A DNA stretch of 64,000 nucleotides from an uncultured Clostridia bacterium (lineage in GTDB: Bacteria > Bacillota > Clostridia > TANB77 > CAG-508), in assembly GCA_934120395.1 (NCBI GenBank), contig CAKOTZ010000006.1:16914-80913 (forward strand), in the 5' to 3' direction. The notes below the pieces were generated by a model that made no database searches, had not been told where the DNA came from, and saw nothing but the letters and a program-made list of their open reading frames with translations. Shown piece by piece: positions 27,757 to 33,193 of the stretch; the stretch's first letter is position 1; each line of letters starts with the position of its first letter. The position numbers and the translations under genes are program-made.

Positions 27757-27925
27757 AAATTTAGTCGTTCCGTGAGAGCGTAAATATTGTTGATTACGGC
27801 TAGAAACTTACCATACAAAGGTAAGTTTTTTGTTATTTATACTTTACAAGTTCAAGATAATCATATAAAACATATTCAATAAATTAACATAAAATTACAT
27901 AAGAAAGAGGGAGAAAAATGAACTT
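27757..27925 (+). repeat. direct repeat copy A of DGR-target leader region (~170 bp)
   Basis: ccgactacacaacaatatatgaaaatttagtcgttccgt ... ataccatacaaaggtaagtttttt ... tactttacaagttcaa repeated at 28385-28766 with indels. Confidence 0.6.
27804..27836 (+). terminator. rho-independent terminator
   Basis: aaacttacc-atacaaa-ggtaagttttttg. Confidence 0.7.
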
Positions 27926-27993
27926 GAAAAGTAACAAAGCGATTACACTGGTAGCATTGATAATTACAATATTTTTATTGCCTATGAAATAAG
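27919..27993 (+). pseudogene. truncated third copy of DGR target gene (N-terminal 24 codons only)
   Basis: MNLKSNKAITLVALIITIFLLPMK* matches first 20 aa of gene at 28761 (MNLKSNKAITLIALIITIIILLI...). Confidence 0.6.
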
Positions 27994-28237
27994 TAACAAT
28001 AATAATTTTCAATATAATGCAAGTAAAAAATTGTTTTTTAAGCAATAATTTTTATTTACTACTAGAAGTAGCTAACATTTTATGATACAATTATATTCGT
28101 TGTCGGCTCTCCACAACAGAGGGAGGTGTAACGCTTGGAGTACATAATTTCCTTTTTTGTGTCTATCGGAGTAGAAGTAGTTAGTTACTATATCTGCAAA
28201 TGGCTAGATAAACACAAGCACGACAATTAGCCAAAAA

Positions 28238-28270
28238 AACAGAGGAGCTGCAACTCCTCTGTTTTTTGCG
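28238..28270. terminator. strong hairpin + T-run (terminator-like) in non-coding spacer
   Basis: aaaaaaacagaggagctgcaactcctctgttttttg. Confidence 0.55.
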
Positions 28271-28384
28271 TGAAACACTTGGTTATCACATAATTTCCTC
28301 TTTAGTATTTACATTATAGCATATTGTTTTTTGATTTACAAGTGTAATTATAAAATTCATGCAAAGGTAAGCCTACTTTACCGC

Positions 28385-28766
28385 CTACACAAAAATATAT
28401 GAAAATTTAGCCGTTCCGTTCTCCAAGGCGCTTGGACAACAGTCCTTTCAAATTTTAATGAACACATTCTAAACTTGTGGAATGAATAACTGCTTCAAGG
28501 TCGAACTCACTATTAAATTTTATATATTTTTGCCTACGGCTAGTGAAAGGTAGTTTAGTGTATTGAAATAGATACTACATTAGCGAGAAGAACAAAAAAA
28601 TACCATACAAAGGTAAGTTTTTTTCATTTGTACTTTACAAATTCAAAATTATAATATAAAATGTATTTAAATAATTAACATAGAATTACATAATATTGCT
28701 TAAAGATGGATAAGCTAAAATAGTAATTATGTTAGAAATACAAAGGAAAGAGGTATAAAAATGAAC
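28385..28766 (+). repeat. direct repeat copy B of DGR-target leader region
   Basis: see copy A. Confidence 0.6.
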
Positions 28767-30023
28767 TTGAAAAGTAACAAAGCAATCACATTGATAGCAT
28801 TGATAATCACAATAATTATATTGCTAATATTAGCAGGAGTGAGTTTGTCAATGGTGCTAGGAGAAAATGGTTTAATTAACAAGGCACAGTCAAGTGTAAA
28901 CAAATACAAAGAGAGTAGCGAAAATGAACAAAAGCTATTAAATAGTATAGAAAATTATATGGATTTACAACTAAAATTACCAGGAGAAAAAGTAGATTTA
29001 CCAGATGGATGGAATAAAGATACAGTAGATGCAGTATTAGATGATAAGAAAAACACAATACCAGTACCAAAGAACTTCTATTATGTAGGAGGGAATTTAG
29101 ATAATGGAGTAATTATATCGGACAATTCAGCTGATGCCTATGATGGAAAAGTAGACAAAACAACATGGGAATATACAACAAGCTTAGTAGGCAACCAATT
29201 TGTATGGATACCATGCACAGAATCTGAATATCATAAGACAGAATGGGAAAGTCAAAGTCAATATGTTTATGGTGTATACGATAAATCGGGACCAAGTCAA
29301 GATGAAATAGATAAAGTTAAAAAATATAATGGTTTTTATGTAGGAAGATATGAAGCAGGGTTAGCAGACACAATAAAAGAATATACAGGAAATCAATTAA
29401 GCGATGGTTCAAATAGTCCAGGATATAATGTAGCAGGAATACCAAAGTCAAAGGCAGGAGAATTACCATGGATATTTATTAACCAAACAAATAGTAAAGC
29501 AAATGCAGAAAAAATGTATGAAAAAAATACTTGTGTAACAAGTGGACTAGTAACAGGAACACAATGGGACGTAATGTTAAACAAATTTATTGGAACAACA
29601 AATGCTAATAGAGTAACTTTTACAGAAGCAGACATGAAAAATTCAAGTAAATGGGGAAATTGTTATAATAATGACTTGATATATACAGGAAGGTCAGCAA
29701 CATTATTTAAGAATGGAAGTAGTGAGTATATAAGCCCATGGGGAGAAAAACAAATAAATGCGGAAACAAAAACAAATACATGTACCGAATATACAACTGG
29801 TGCCAGTAAGTCTACAGAAGCATATCATATTTATGATGTAGCAGGGAATGTATGGGAATGGACGGAGGAGGTCGGACAAGGCACTGCATATCGCGTCATT
29901 CGTGGTGGTTCTTGTGGGAATGATCAAGATACTAGTCCAGCGTGTTGGCGTTATTCTACTCTCAAAGATTATGAGGTGTACTATCACATCGGATTTCGTA
30001 CTGTATTGTATATAAAAAATTAG
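28761..30023 (+). CDS. membrane-anchored FGE-sulfatase-fold (SUMF1/EgtB/PvdO-type) protein, DGR target paralog with decayed variable region
   Basis: 420 aa. N-terminal TM anchor; GFYVGRYEAGLADT; C-terminal AGNVWEWTEEVGQGTAYRVIRGGSC...GFRTVLYI. 3' 118 nt (29893-30010) homologous to TR but differs at non-A positions too. Confidence 0.8.
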   Translation: MNLKSNKAITLIALIITIIILLILAGVSLSMVLGENGLINKAQSSVNKYKESSENEQKLLNSIENYMDLQLKLPGEKVDLPDGWNKDTVDAVLDDKKNTIPVPKNFYYVGGNLDNGVIISDNSADAYDGKVDKTTWEYTTSLVGNQFVWIPCTESEYHKTEWESQSQYVYGVYDKSGPSQDEIDKVKKYNGFYVGRYEAGLADTIKEYTGNQLSDGSNSPGYNVAGIPKSKAGELPWIFINQTNSKANAEKMYEKNTCVTSGLVTGTQWDVMLNKFIGTTNANRVTFTEADMKNSSKWGNCYNNDLIYTGRSATLFKNGSSEYISPWGEKQINAETKTNTCTEYTTGASKSTEAYHIYDVAGNVWEWTEEVGQGTAYRVIRGGSCGNDQDTSPACWRYSTLKDYEVYYHIGFRTVLYIKN

Positions 30024-31414: not shown

Positions 31415-31525
31415 ACCTGAACGCTTGTTAGCGATGCACATTGACCTTGTTTAATGATAGAATACGAGTAGATAGTTTGAAGAGGTGACATTATACATAC
31501 GATAAAATAGTAGAGGTTTATTAGT

Positions 31526-31891
31526 ATGGCGGATAATAAAAAAGAATTGATATTAATTCCAAAGTCAGAAAAATATATTCAATATATGATTGAAGTAATT
31601 ATGAAGTTGCCTCGTACAGAGAAATTTAGTATTGGAACCGAATATAAAACAGCAATGTATAAAATGCTTGAAAATATTATGCTTTTAAGCAAGGTGCGAG
31701 CAGAGGAAAAAATAAATTACATCAATTATATAGATGCTGAACTTAATGTTCAAAGAATTTTCTTGAGAATAATGTATAAAAATCAGTGGATAGACGAGAA
31801 ACGTTTTAAAGTAGCTTCAGATTTAATATATGAATTAGGAAAATTAGTAGGAGGTCTTTTAAAATTCTATGGCCAGAACATTAAGAAATAA
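31526..31891 (+). CDS. avd: DGR accessory variability determinant (Avd), four-helix-bundle protein
   Basis: 121 aa. Basic, immediately upstream of and overlapping the RT gene as in canonical DGRs. Confidence 0.65.
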   Translation: MADNKKELILIPKSEKYIQYMIEVIMKLPRTEKFSIGTEYKTAMYKMLENIMLLSKVRAEEKINYINYIDAELNVQRIFLRIMYKNQWIDEKRFKVASDLIYELGKLVGGLLKFYGQNIKK

Positions 31892-32885
31892 ATTTGATGA
31901 GTATTTAACTTACGATAATCTAATGCGAGCTCATTTAGAGAGTAGGAAAAATAAGCGTTATAAAAAAGATATCATTTTGTTTGAAATTAAACAAGAAGAT
32001 TATATTAGATATTTATTGGAAGAACTAAAAAATGGTACATATAAGCATGGAGGCTATTCAATCTTTTATGTAAGAGAGCCTAAATTGAGAAAAGTAGAAA
32101 AATCAAGATATATAGATAGGGTCGTGCATAGATGGTTAGTAGATAATTTTTTCATTGATCTATATGTACCAACTTTTATATCAACAAGTTATGCTTGTTT
32201 AAAAGACAGGGGAACGCACAAAGCAGTATGTGATGTGCAAAAAGCAATGCAGCATTGCCTAAGAATATGGAATGAATACTATATATTAAAAATGGATGTT
32301 GCTAAATACTTTCAAAGCATTGATAAAAATATTTTGTTTAATATAATAAAGAAAAAAATTAAAGATAAAAAGGTACTATGGTTGGTAGAACAAATTATTT
32401 ATTCAAATAAGGGAGAAACGGGTATAGCCATAGGAAACTATACTTCACAGATATTTGCAAATTTATATTTAAATGAAGTAGATCAATATATAAAAAAAGA
32501 ATTGAAGGTTAAATATTATTTTAGGTATATGGATGATTCGATAATTCTTGTAAAAACTAAAAATGAGGCAAAATTAATATTAGAAAAAATAAGACAATTC
32601 TTAAGGGAAAATTTAAAATTAGAGTTAAACTCTAAAACTCAAATATTTAAGAATAAACAAGGTGTTAATTTTTGTGGATACAAAATTAATGAATACAGAA
32701 TGAAGGTAAGAGACAGAGGAAAGAAGAAACTTAAAAAAAAGATAAAAATATTAAAAGAAAATGTGAAAAATGGTAAAATGAGTAGTAAAGAGGCTAAGTT
32801 ATACCTGTGTGGGCATGTTGGATATATTAAATATGCAGATGTTCACAATTTAACTAGCAAGCTGTTTTATTTGCCGGAAGAATAA
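31869..32885 (+). CDS. DGR-type reverse transcriptase
   Basis: 338 aa. RT motifs incl. IAIGNYTSQIFANLYL (DGR hallmark I/LGxxxSQ instead of QGxxxSP) and FRYMDDSIILV (YMDD). Confidence 0.88.
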   Translation: MARTLRNKFDEYLTYDNLMRAHLESRKNKRYKKDIILFEIKQEDYIRYLLEELKNGTYKHGGYSIFYVREPKLRKVEKSRYIDRVVHRWLVDNFFIDLYVPTFISTSYACLKDRGTHKAVCDVQKAMQHCLRIWNEYYILKMDVAKYFQSIDKNILFNIIKKKIKDKKVLWLVEQIIYSNKGETGIAIGNYTSQIFANLYLNEVDQYIKKELKVKYYFRYMDDSIILVKTKNEAKLILEKIRQFLRENLKLELNSKTQIFKNKQGVNFCGYKINEYRMKVRDRGKKKLKKKIKILKENVKNGKMSSKEAKLYLCGHVGYIKYADVHNLTSKLFYLPEE

Positions 32886-32914
32886 TAATAACATAGGGAT
32901 AAATCAGATGGCGG

Positions 32915-33030
32915 GCGTCATTCGTGGCGGTTCTTGCAATAATGCTTCAGGTTCTAACCCAGCATGCTACCGCAATGGTAACAACTCTGTTTCCAATGTG
33001 AACTATAACATCGGGTTCCGTGCCGTACTC
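32915..33030 (+). repeat. DGR template repeat (TR), 3' of RT
   Basis: Adenine-rich (26 A); in VR frame encodes VIRGGSCNNASGSNPACYRNGNNSVSNVNYNIGFRAVL with 8 AAY codons; near-identical to VR except at A. Confidence 0.85.
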
Positions 33031-33193
33031 TAATATTATTCGAGATTGTGTGTTTTACGGAATGCATACAGTGAAGTATTAGATATTAAAGAGGTTTATT
33101 CCTTCCTACTTTAGGTAAAAATGAATCAATAAAACATGTATTGGTAGTAAATTTACGAAGATACGTGTTTTATGCTATATATAAGGTGAAAAT

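What the first reader, a model, noticed from the sequence alone, without database searches (positions are those of the whole stretch)
27757..33033. Complete diversity-generating retroelement with FGE-sulfatase-fold targets and adenine-specific TR/VR divergence
A DGR-type RT (IGNYTSQ + YMDD) with an overlapping upstream avd is followed by a 116-nt adenine-rich template repeat (32915-33030). The TR matches the 3' end of the membrane-anchored FGE-fold gene 30149..31414 (VR 31287-31402) with 12 differences, every one at a TR adenine (A->C/G/T), hitting AAY codons. That is the mutagenic-homing signature. The identical GC-rich 3' block gggttccgtgccgtact is the likely IMH. The target is TM-anchored rather than carrying a classical secretion signal. 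The TR lies downstream of the RT, not between avd and RT.
Basis: partly seen in the sequence, partly recalled or inferred. Interest (0 to 1): 0.85.

Follow-up and report, generated by a model that had tools for sequence, protein, structure and literature searches.

The report
Active diversity-generating retroelement in gut Clostridia
This is a real and recently active diversity-generating retroelement, a known kind of system that rewrites the tip of one surface protein, here in an uncultured gut Clostridium; the only possibly new feature is a small SSB-like gene that travels with the cassette.

Summary
A 115-nt template repeat (TR, 32915-33029) matches the 3' end of gene 30149..31414 (VR, 31287-31401) with 12 mismatches, all at TR adenines (P ~1.6e-9). 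Upstream lie avd and a reverse transcriptase whose best solved relative is the 8ub7 reverse transcriptase (identified from memory as Bordetella phage bRT; E 2e-45) and which carries IGNYTSQ and YMDD.

Four near-identical strains carry the same TR but four different VR alleles. Almost every difference between them sits at a TR-adenine position, so the element has been active recently.

- The element runs on to 33892. It adds a structured RNA abutting the TR (Rfam RT-14, 123 bits), a 92-aa SSB-fold protein and a MutS-domain-I protein (the known MSL accessory).
- Only one of the two FGE-fold genes is a target. The paralog 28761..30023 has 28 non-adenine mismatches and no IMH-like block.
- TR downstream of the RT and a membrane-anchored target are both ordinary for cellular DGRs.

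More than 180 related cassettes exist in gut Clostridia genomes. The SSB-like gene is linked to them in 66 of 80 loci, and I found no description of it in the searchable literature. Verdict: a new member of a known kind, of moderate interest.

The parts
30149..31414 (+). Target gene (variable protein, 421 aa). It has an N-terminal hydrophobic helix that resembles a pilin leader (MNNKSAKG|ITLVALIITIIILLILAGV), a globular middle part and a C-terminal FGE-sulfatase/C-type-lectin fold that carries the VR.
   Evidence: ORF. Pfam FGE-sulfatase 25.8 bits against a cutoff of 23.3; N_methyl 15.9 bits, below its cutoff of 21.2. AlphaFold model pLDDT 88.4. Foldseek hits to FGE, Mtd, TvpA and TaqVP at E ~1e-4. 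The family has more than 4589 members.
31287..31401 (+). Variable repeat (VR), 115 nt, covering the last ~40 codons of the target.
   Evidence: 12 mismatches to the TR, all at TR adenines. Four strains carry four VR alleles on an otherwise identical protein.
31385..31445 (+). 3' boundary of the VR. The GC-rich block GGGTTCCGTGCCGTACT (31385-31401) is shared with the TR. It is followed by a VR-specific flank (TTACATCAAGTAG ACCTGAACGCTTGTTAGCGATG) containing a family-conserved (A)CTGA motif. This is the candidate IMH.
   Evidence: TR and VR diverge exactly after ACT. The flank motif is conserved in 49 loci, but no conserved hairpin was found.
31526..31891 (+). avd accessory gene (121 aa), overlapping the RT start by 23 nt.
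   Evidence: Pfam bAvd E 3.2e-17. NCBIfam DivGenRetAVD E 4.9e-21, 75 bits against a cutoff of 80.
31869..32885 (+). DGR reverse transcriptase (338 aa) with IGNYTSQ ([I/V/L]GxxxSQ) and YMDD.
   Evidence: Best PDB match is 8ub7_A ('Reverse transcriptase'; identified as BPP-1 bRT from memory), E 1.8e-45 over the full length. The equivalents of bRT R74 and I181 are conserved. Pfam RVT_1.
32915..33029 (+). Template repeat (TR), 115 nt, with 26 adenines and 9 AAY codons. No stop codon can be reached by adenine substitution.
   Evidence: Identical in four strains.
33028..33173 (+). Structured RNA abutting the 3' end of the TR: Rfam RF02921 'RT-14 RNA'. Inferred to be the counterpart of the BPP-1 spacer RNA, serving as RT-Avd binding and priming scaffold.
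   Evidence: 122.9 bits against a gathering score of 48.1, full length 1-144. Present in 16 of 16 related loci tested and abutting the TR 3' end wherever a TR was mapped there. 12 of 24 predicted pairs show compensatory changes.
33194..33472 (+). Mini-SSB: a 92-aa OB-fold protein with no acidic C-terminal tail. Candidate additional DGR accessory factor.
   Evidence: AlphaFold pLDDT 91.2. The top 50 Foldseek PDB hits are all SSB, PriB or RPA OB domains, TMq 0.63-0.82. Pfam SSB matches 23 of 42 family members. Present in 66 of 80 related loci. Reverse context test positive for 3 of 4 proteins.
33485..33892 (-). MSL: a 135-aa protein made only of a MutS domain I. The probable start is the MSKLY Met at 33892, not the first ATG at 33922.
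   Evidence: Pfam MutS_I 45.2 bits against a cutoff of 20.6. The family profile matches Taq MutS 1ewq at E 3.3e-7, with the Phe of GxFY aligned to GDFYE. Present in 55 of 80 loci, in two positions. MSL is a described DGR accessory.
28761..30023 (+). Paralog of the target (420 aa, ~70% identical). It is not a current DGR substrate.
   Evidence: Its VR-like end has 28 non-adenine mismatches to the TR. The IMH-like block is degraded (GGATTTCGTACTGTATT) and the conserved 3' flank is absent. It is absent from sister strain L001 by DNA alignment; in L098 and L099 the target follows the DUF4143 ATPase gene directly, with no room for it.

Best explanation
This is a chromosomal, recently active diversity-generating retroelement of an uncultured human-gut Clostridium.

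Proposed mechanism:
1. The avd-RT-TR-RT-14 region is transcribed.
2. The RT-Avd complex binds the structured RT-14 RNA that abuts the TR.
3. The complex copies the TR into cDNA and misincorporates opposite the 26 template adenines.
4. The cDNA replaces the VR at the 3' end of gene 30149..31414. Direction is set by the shared GC-rich block plus the VR-specific flank.
5. The result is re-randomisation of up to ~1e13 variants of the ligand-binding face of a membrane-anchored (possibly pilin-like) C-type-lectin-fold surface protein.

Shown: the parts, the A-only pattern, and VR variation between strains.

Inferred by analogy with Bordetella phage BPP-1: priming from the RNA scaffold and cDNA homing.

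Inferred from conserved linkage and fold alone: the mini-SSB coats the single-stranded cDNA, and the MutS-domain-I protein (MSL) shields the mismatch-dense heteroduplex from host mismatch repair.
For: - TR/VR: 12 of 12 mismatches at TR adenines, P 1.6e-9.
- RT: best solved relative is the 8ub7_A reverse transcriptase, E 1.8e-45 (bRT by my recollection). It has the [I/V/L]GxxxSQ motif, YMDD, and the equivalents of R74 and I181 that promote adenine mutagenesis.
- Avd HMM matches.
- Target fold matches FGE, Mtd, TvpA and TaqVP.
- Strain comparison: the window, L001, L098 and L099 have the identical 115-nt TR but VRs with 12, 12, 14 and 14 mismatches to it. L001 and L098 differ at 10 positions in the gene, all 10 inside the VR and 0 in the other 1151 nt. 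The proteins are identical outside the VR region apart from I362V.
- RT-14 RNA at the TR 3' end, with covariation support.
- 59 related loci show TR/VR pairs in which 1007 of 1045 mismatches are at adenines.
- The mini-SSB and MSL stay linked to the cassette while its flanking genes change.
- A host mutS knockout raises retrohoming 5-10 fold in Bacteroides (bioRxiv 10.1101/2024.11.15.621889). This makes an anti-mismatch-repair role for MSL plausible.
Against: - There is no read-level or experimental evidence from this organism. The activity argument rests on four assembled consensus sequences.
- L001 has 2 non-adenine differences in its VR.
- No conserved hairpin follows the VR, unlike in BPP-1, so the target-recognition element is not identified.
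- The 96% adenine figure across loci is conditioned on a filter of at least 80%.
- The roles of the mini-SSB and MSL are inferred from linkage and fold alone. 14 of 80 loci lack a detectable SSB gene and 25 lack MSL, partly because contigs are truncated.
Confidence: 0.93

Rival explanations
1. Fossil DGR. The TR/VR pattern records past activity, but the element no longer works.
For: No direct activity data exist. The paralog 28761..30023 shows that VRs in this locus can decay.
Against: All ORFs are intact. RT and Avd are 100% identical in L001. The TR is identical in four strains while their VRs differ at 7-16 positions against 0-2 differences in the rest of the gene among the three closest strains. 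That requires homing events more recent than the divergence of the strains.
Confidence: 0.05
2. The VR differences arise from ordinary recombination or gene conversion among paralogous FGE-fold genes under diversifying selection, not from reverse transcription.
For: A paralog lies 1.4 kb upstream, together with a truncated third copy.
Against: The differences are confined to TR-adenine positions (12/12, 10/12, 14/14 and 14/14), which recombination cannot produce. The paralog differs at 28 non-adenine positions, and none of these appear in any VR allele. A test for paralog-derived SNPs in the gene body was negative.
Confidence: 0.01
3. The RT belongs to another prokaryotic RT system (a retron, a group II intron, or an Abi/DRT defence RT), and the repeat is incidental.
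For: NCBIfam gives sub-threshold hits to group II, Drt3a and retron St85 models.
Against: All those hits are far below their cutoffs. The closest solved structure is the 8ub7 reverse transcriptase, 26 orders of magnitude in E-value ahead of the group II RTs. The SQ signature, Avd, the TR/VR pair and the RT-14 RNA are all present.
Confidence: 0.01
4. Phage-borne DGR that diversifies a receptor-binding protein of a prophage.
For: Many gut DGRs are viral (Roux 2021).
Against: No phage structural genes flank it. The neighbours are a CAP/SH3 protein, a DUF4143 ATPase, MazEF, a D-Ala-D-Ala carboxypeptidase, tRNAs and a thioester-domain adhesin. The target begins with a membrane or pilin-like helix rather than a tail-fibre module. 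Related cassettes sit in varied chromosomal contexts.
Confidence: 0.03

Closest known systems
Bordetella phage BPP-1 DGR (mtd-avd-TR-brt)
   Same: An RT with the same signature motif whose best solved relative (8ub7) I take to be bRT. Avd is present. TR-to-VR mutagenesis is adenine-specific. The VR sits in a C-type-lectin fold at the C-terminus of the target. A structured RNA lies next to the TR (RT-10 in BPP-1, RT-14 here).
   Different: The gene order here is avd-RT-TR-RNA, not avd-TR-RNA-RT. The element is chromosomal, not phage-borne. The target is a membrane or pilin-like anchored cell protein, not a tail fibre. No conserved GC hairpin follows the VR. There are two extra genes (mini-SSB, MSL).
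MSL-containing DGRs ('Architecture D' of Wu et al. 2018; Legionella and Bacteroides Bfr/Bth/Bun elements)
   Same: avd together with a small MutS-domain-I-only accessory protein. The Bacteroides elements also diversify pilus-associated adhesins of gut bacteria.
   Different: The host is a low-GC gut Clostridium. The target has a type-IV-pilin-like N-terminus rather than being a type V pilus tip. MSL occupies two alternative positions and strands within the clade. A conserved SSB-fold gene accompanies the cassette; I did not find one described for those elements.
Treponema denticola TvpA and Thermus aquaticus TaqVP variable proteins
   Same: FGE-sulfatase-type C-type-lectin fold bearing the VR. 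Both are among the Foldseek matches with E <= 0.001.
   Different: TvpA is a lipoprotein, and the Treponema DGR uses an HRDC accessory. Sequence identity to the present target is only 11-15%.
Bacterial SSB/PriB OB domains (e.g. B. subtilis SsbA 6bhw, S. aureus SsbB 5yyu)
   Same: The fold of the 92-aa protein matches them at TMq 0.63-0.82.
   Different: It has no C-terminal acidic tip and only 11-20% identity. It forms a compact family of its own (489 cluster representatives among 1.84 billion). It is encoded next to DGR RTs.

Membership tests
Diversity-generating retroelement | RT of the DGR type with the [I/V/L]GxxxSQ motif and a YxDD catalytic box | tested here: met
   IGNYTSQ and YMDD are present. 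Best PDB hit is the 8ub7_A reverse transcriptase, E 1.8e-45, full length. The motif definition comes from PMC7826257. No curated DGR-RT HMM was available; the NCBIfam hits to other RT families are all sub-threshold.
Diversity-generating retroelement | A TR/VR pair whose differences are restricted to TR adenines | tested here: met
   12 of 12 mismatches at adenines over 115 nt; P 1.6e-9.
Diversity-generating retroelement | VR at the 3' end of a protein-coding target, within a C-type-lectin/FGE (or Ig) fold | tested here: met
   The VR covers the last ~40 codons. Pfam FGE-sulfatase is above its cutoff. The model matches Mtd, TvpA, TaqVP and FGE.
Diversity-generating retroelement | Accessory protein Avd (present in most but not all DGRs) | tested here: met
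   Pfam bAvd 63.4 bits against a cutoff of 40. NCBIfam DivGenRetAVD 75 bits against a cutoff of 80, so just below.
Diversity-generating retroelement | IMH at the VR 3' end with a differing IMH* at the TR | tested here: inconclusive
   A shared 17-nt GC-rich block is followed by different flanks in VR and TR, and both flanks are conserved across the clade. Function was not tested.
Diversity-generating retroelement | Hairpin or cruciform just downstream of the VR (BPP-1-type target recognition; not universal among DGRs) | tested here: not met
   The fold of the VR flank is no better than shuffled sequence (z 0.33). RNAalifold finds no consensus pairs in 49 loci.
Diversity-generating retroelement | Evidence of actual VR diversification | tested here: met
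   Four strains share an identical TR and carry four VR alleles. Differences are concentrated in the VR: 10 against 0, 13 against 2, and 7 against 2 in the rest of the gene. Read-level heterogeneity could not be tested.
Diversity-generating retroelement | Adenine-mutagenic cDNA synthesis by RT-Avd on TR RNA | not testable with these tools
   This needs biochemistry or RNA/cDNA sequencing.
Rfam RF02921 (RT-14 RNA) | Covariance-model score above the gathering threshold | tested here: met
   122.9 bits against 48.1, model positions 1-144 of 144. Covariation is seen in 12 pairs.
MSL (MutS-like DGR accessory; Wu et al. 2018) | Small protein (112-283 aa) with only the MutS mismatch-binding domain I, encoded in an avd-containing DGR | tested here: met
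   135 aa; Pfam MutS_I 45.2 bits against 20.6. The profile matches Taq and E. coli MutS domain I. The G-x-F motif is invariant, while the position aligned to the Glu of GDFYE in Taq MutS is not Glu.
Canonical bacterial SSB | SSB OB domain plus a C-terminal acidic protein-interaction tip, with a Pfam SSB match | tested here: not met
   The OB fold is met. However, the window protein does not reach Pfam SSB; it gets only tRNA_anti-codon OB at 22 bits, below the cutoff of 27. It ends ...VKFKTSL with no acidic tail. It has the fold of an SSB OB domain but is not a canonical SSB.
Type IV pilin / pseudopilin | Class III signal peptide: a short basic leader ending in Gly, a hydrophobic alpha1-N with Glu at +5, and a match to the N_methyl / TIGR02532 model | tested here: inconclusive
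   The leader MNNKSAKG|ITLVA has Gly at -1 but Ala at +5. N_methyl scores 15.9 bits, below the cutoff of 21.2. Only 8 of 76 family members reach E <= 0.01, and the GspG and PilA hits are weak. The model shows a long N-terminal helix. No other pilin-like N-terminal leaders occur in the window; a full scan for pilus-assembly genes was not done.

The most novel reading that the evidence does not exclude
Two readings remain open.

1. The conserved 92-aa SSB-fold protein encoded just after the TR/RT-14 RNA may be an undescribed, dedicated DGR accessory factor. Acting with the MutS-domain-I protein, it would handle the single-stranded cDNA and the mismatch-dense heteroduplex during homing. That would imply that cDNA integration in this clade proceeds by single-strand annealing with built-in evasion of mismatch repair.

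2. The diversified target may be a modular type-IV-pilin-like adhesin.
Probability: 0.35. Interest if true: 0.6.

Novelty: new member of a known kind. Interest (0 to 1): 0.4.

Why it matters
As a DGR it adds little. Gut Firmicutes are already known to be rich in DGRs, and the avd-RT-TR order, MSL and the RT-14 RNA have all been described.

Its value lies in being a clean, compact and evidently active example from an uncultured gut Clostridia lineage. A self-contained 3.7-kb cassette (30149-33892) holds the target, avd, RT, TR, RT-14 RNA, mini-SSB and MSL.

How DGR cDNA is integrated into the VR remains unresolved. A cassette that carries its own SSB-fold protein and its own MutS-domain-I protein gives a direct handle on that step, through reconstitution with and without each gene.

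The clade also assigns a function to the orphan Rfam family RT-14, as a TR-adjacent DGR RNA.

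Tried and rejected
- Exact look-up of the RT protein found nothing on record.
- My first TR/VR scan used blastn on each locus against itself and returned nothing, even for the positive control. I took this as a parameter failure and replaced it with my own ungapped seed-and-extend scan.
- A single-sequence search with the OB protein found only 3 relatives. A profile of locus-derived sequences was needed to reach more.
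- Short contigs carrying the identical OB gene (L082-L088) do not reach the VR, so they gave no VR alleles.
- The supplementary files of Wu et al. 2018 are not held. I therefore could not check whether the SSB-like gene is one of their unnamed 'PAG1-4' candidates.
- A fold-search job and the first target model were lost on the remote machine and had to be repeated.
- Single-sequence phmmer of MSL against the PDB gave no hit. The family profile did.
- A BPP-1-like hairpin after the VR was not supported.
- The idea that SNPs in the window's target gene body came from the paralog by gene conversion was not supported: 8 sites match the window allele and 14 match the L001 allele.
- A type I toxin call for the small ORF at 28135 has no Pfam support.
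- Literature searches for DGR together with SSB, OB-fold, type IV pilin or prepilin found nothing relevant. The library is limited to open-access text.

Full report
**Observation**

The ORF map shows two paralogous 420/421-aa genes on the + strand (28761..30023 and 30149..31414). They are followed by a 121-aa ORF (31526..31891) that overlaps a 338-aa ORF (31869..32885).

The repeat finder reports a three-copy family: 29893-30010, 31287-31404 and 32915-33032. Base-by-base comparison shows that 32915-33029 (TR) and 31287-31401 (VR) are collinear over 115 nt. They differ at 12 positions, all of which are adenines in the downstream copy. With 26 A in 115 nt, that has a probability of 1.6e-9 by chance.

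The next base (33030/31402) is a C/T difference, and homology ends there.

The TR is not adenine-rich. It is 23% A and forms a 43-51% GC island in DNA that is mostly 20-35% GC. Its adenines are packed into nine AAY codons. Eight of the 12 changes fall in AAY codons.

The third copy, at the end of the paralog, has 41 mismatches, 28 of them at non-adenines. Its GC-rich end block is degraded. A scan of both strands of the whole window, tolerant only of adenine mismatches, finds no further VR.

**Identity of the parts**

- The 338-aa protein matches PDB 8ub7_A ('Reverse transcriptase') over its full length at E 1.8e-45, against 2.7e-19 for the best group II RT. I identify 8ub7 as the Bordetella phage BPP-1 bRT from memory, supported by its IGSLTSQ motif.
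- The window RT has IGNYTSQ, the DGR signature [I/V/L]GxxxSQ, and YMDD. In that alignment it keeps the equivalents of bRT Arg74 and Ile181, which promote adenine mutagenesis (PMC7826257).
- The 121-aa protein is Avd (Pfam bAvd 3e-17; NCBIfam DivGenRetAVD 5e-21, 75 bits, just under the 80-bit cutoff).
- The target passes Pfam FGE-sulfatase. A confident model (pLDDT 88.4) matches formylglycine-generating enzymes and the three classical DGR variable proteins Mtd, TvpA and TaqVP (E 1e-4 to 8e-4).

**Evidence of activity**

The target belongs to a 90%-identity cluster with four members. Their sequences are identical for 380 residues apart from I362V, and they differ at 14 positions in the last 40 residues.

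I recovered the DNA of the three other strains (L001, L098, L099, all from human gut metagenomes). All four carry the exact same 115-nt TR. Their VRs have 12, 12, 14 and 14 mismatches to it, with 0, 2, 0 and 0 of those at non-adenines.

| Pair | Differences in the gene | Inside the VR | Outside the VR |
|---|---|---|---|
| L001 vs L098 | 10 | 10 | 0 |
| L001 vs L099 | 15 | 13 | 2 |
| L098 vs L099 | 9 | 7 | 2 |

RT and Avd are 100% identical in L001. This is the expected footprint of mutagenic homing more recent than the split of the strains.

The TR can specify about 4.5e15 DNA variants and about 1e13 protein variants. No stop codon is reachable.

*RT-14 RNA.* Rfam RF02921 'RT-14 RNA' matches 33028-33173 at 122.9 bits (gathering score 48.1) over the full model, starting exactly where the TR homology ends. 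Weinberg et al. 2017 described RT-1 to RT-19 as orphan motifs near RT genes. They noted that RT-10 lies between the TR and brt in BPP-1, and speculated that others serve DGRs (PMC5737381). RT-14 is present in 16 of 16 related loci tested and abuts the TR 3' end wherever a TR was mapped, including loci where the TR sits upstream of avd. Twelve of 24 predicted pairs show compensatory changes. TR plus RT-14 is therefore one module, most likely the RT-Avd binding and priming scaffold. That last step is an inference from BPP-1.

*Mini-SSB.* The 92-aa ORF 33194..33472 folds with pLDDT 91.2 into an OB domain. Its top 50 PDB matches are all SSB, PriB or RPA OB domains, with TMq 0.63-0.82. 23 of 42 relatives hit Pfam SSB. 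It lacks the acidic C-terminal tip of canonical SSBs.

*MSL.* On the opposite strand, 33485..33892 encodes a 135-aa protein made only of MutS domain I (45 bits). A family profile aligns it to Taq MutS, with the invariant G-x-F on GDFYE. This is the 'MSL' accessory described by Wu et al. 2018 (16 of 372 DGRs, 'Architecture D'), which is also present in some Bacteroides DGRs.

**Comparative context**

A scan of species-representative genomes with the RT found 182 relatives. The 80 loci retained (59-73% RT identity) are almost all labelled uncultured Clostridia or Clostridium MAGs, with a few labelled Bacilli, Tenericutes or Staphylococcaceae. They come from human, chicken, rabbit and ruminant guts.

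- The target-avd-RT core recurs wherever the contig extends far enough.
- The SSB-like gene is found in 66 of 80 loci, almost always just after the TR/RT-14 module.
- MSL is found in 55 of 80 loci: 35 on the + strand, typically upstream of avd, and 20 downstream on the opposite strand, as in the window.
- The window's flanking genes (DUF4143 ATPase, MazEF) are not conserved.
- 59 loci have a TR/VR pair, and 1007 of 1045 mismatches are at adenines. This figure is conditioned on my filter of at least 80%.

I also ran the test in the reverse direction, starting from SSB-like proteins found with a profile (86 proteins). Three of the four I examined lie 300-440 nt downstream of a bAvd + RVT_1 pair. 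In two of these the upstream candidate targets are different (611-674 aa, beside sortase and SpaA genes). The fourth lies beside an IS200-type transposase.

In an exhaustive search of 1.84 billion cluster representatives, the family has only 489 members at E <= 1e-3. Nearly all are 70-130 aa. It is a distinct small family and not ordinary SSB.

In the searchable literature I found no paper linking DGRs with an SSB or OB-fold accessory. I could not check the unnamed 'PAG1-4' genes of Wu et al., because their supplement is not held.

- TR downstream of the RT is the known 'avd-RT-TR' architecture.
- Roux et al. [quoted passage not shown]
- The leader of the target (MNNKSAKG|ITLVALIITIIILLILAGV) resembles a prepilin class III signal. 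However, it has Ala rather than Glu at +5 and scores below the N_methyl cutoff. Only 8 of 76 relatives reach E <= 0.01. A type-IV-pilin-like adhesin remains a lead and has not been shown.
- The shared GC-rich block cannot itself discriminate VR from TR. The discriminating element should be the clade-conserved VR flank, which contains an (A)CTGA motif just after the stop codon. No conserved hairpin is present there.

**Mechanism**

Shown:
- All parts are present and intact.
- TR-to-VR divergence is adenine-only.
- VR turnover between strains is recent.
- A structured RNA is fused to the TR.

Inferred from BPP-1 biochemistry:
- RT-Avd binds the RNA.
- It primes and copies the TR with misincorporation at adenines.
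- The cDNA replaces the VR.

Inferred from linkage and fold only:
- The mini-SSB protects or presents the single-stranded cDNA.
- MSL occupies the mismatches of the cDNA/VR heteroduplex so that host MutS does not restore the parental allele.

The last idea fits the 5-10-fold rise in retrohoming in a Bacteroides mutS knockout.

**Verdict**

This is a genuine, complete and recently active DGR. It is a new member of a well-populated but little-described clade in gut Clostridia. The novelty is limited to a candidate extra accessory gene, the SSB-fold protein, and a possible pilin-like target.

Noticed in passing
L031:3090-5220 (CAMXJY010000020.1, related locus): Six tandem TR + RT-14 modules (RT-14 starts at 3221, 3569, 3946, 4332, 4680 and 5075). 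Their TR bodies differ at many non-adenine positions, but all share the 5' end (GGCACTTCGTGCCGT) and 3' end (CGGGTGCCGTGCGTACT) of the single VR. Only module 4 matches the current VR (8 A-only mismatches over the 129-nt repeat). This may be an array of alternative templates that could swap the VR scaffold as well as mutagenise it.
   Followed up: partly
L076:1745-2310 (related locus): Two consecutive TR + RT-14 modules with related but non-identical TR sequences.
   Followed up: no
window 28371-30010: The segment carrying the non-diversified paralog is absent from sister strain L001 by DNA alignment. In L098 and L099 the target gene follows the DUF4143 ATPase gene directly. The paralog is therefore either a strain-specific duplication or insertion, or was deleted in the other strains.
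   Followed up: partly
window 27918-27992, with 27732-27773 / 28378-28419 and 27827-27981 / 28618-28824: A truncated third copy of the target's N-terminus (MNLKSNKAITLVALIITIFLLPMK*), plus duplicated upstream segments that include the 3' end of the DUF4143 ATPase gene. These are scars of rearrangement in front of the DGR.
   Followed up: no
window 28099-28275: A small hydrophobic ORF (28135.., MEYIISFFVSIGVEVVSYYICKWLDKHKHDN) overlaps a weak, sub-threshold Rfam hit to the Streptococcus sRNA SpF66 (27 bits against a gathering score of 42). It could be a type I toxin-antitoxin locus. Pfam gives no support.
   Followed up: partly
window 31402-31445 and the equivalent positions in 49 loci: A sequence motif just after the target's stop codon, (A)CTGA followed by a less conserved CTG...GCGAT, is conserved across the clade without a conserved secondary structure. 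It is a candidate target-recognition element and remains unexplained.
   Followed up: partly
L071:982-2184 (related locus): MSL is fused in frame to the RT in a single 400-aa ORF, and avd is missing. Wu et al. reported weak MutS_I similarity in the C-terminal extensions of three RTs; here the MutS-like part is at the N-terminus.
   Followed up: no
window 34122-34687: A MazE/MazF (PemK) toxin-antitoxin pair lies immediately downstream of the cassette. It is conserved in the sister strains but not in the wider clade.
   Followed up: no
window 36049-36057 against L001:15897-17352: Sister strain L001 carries an extra DUF4143/AAA_14 ATPase gene inserted next to the two tRNA genes (window 36064-36282, minus strand). 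The window strain lacks it.
   Followed up: no
window 36573-40721: A 1382-aa surface protein with a thioester (TED) domain, five DUF11 repeats and a C-terminal hydrophobic anchor segment. It is a second adhesin-type gene, about 3 kb downstream of the DGR.
   Followed up: no
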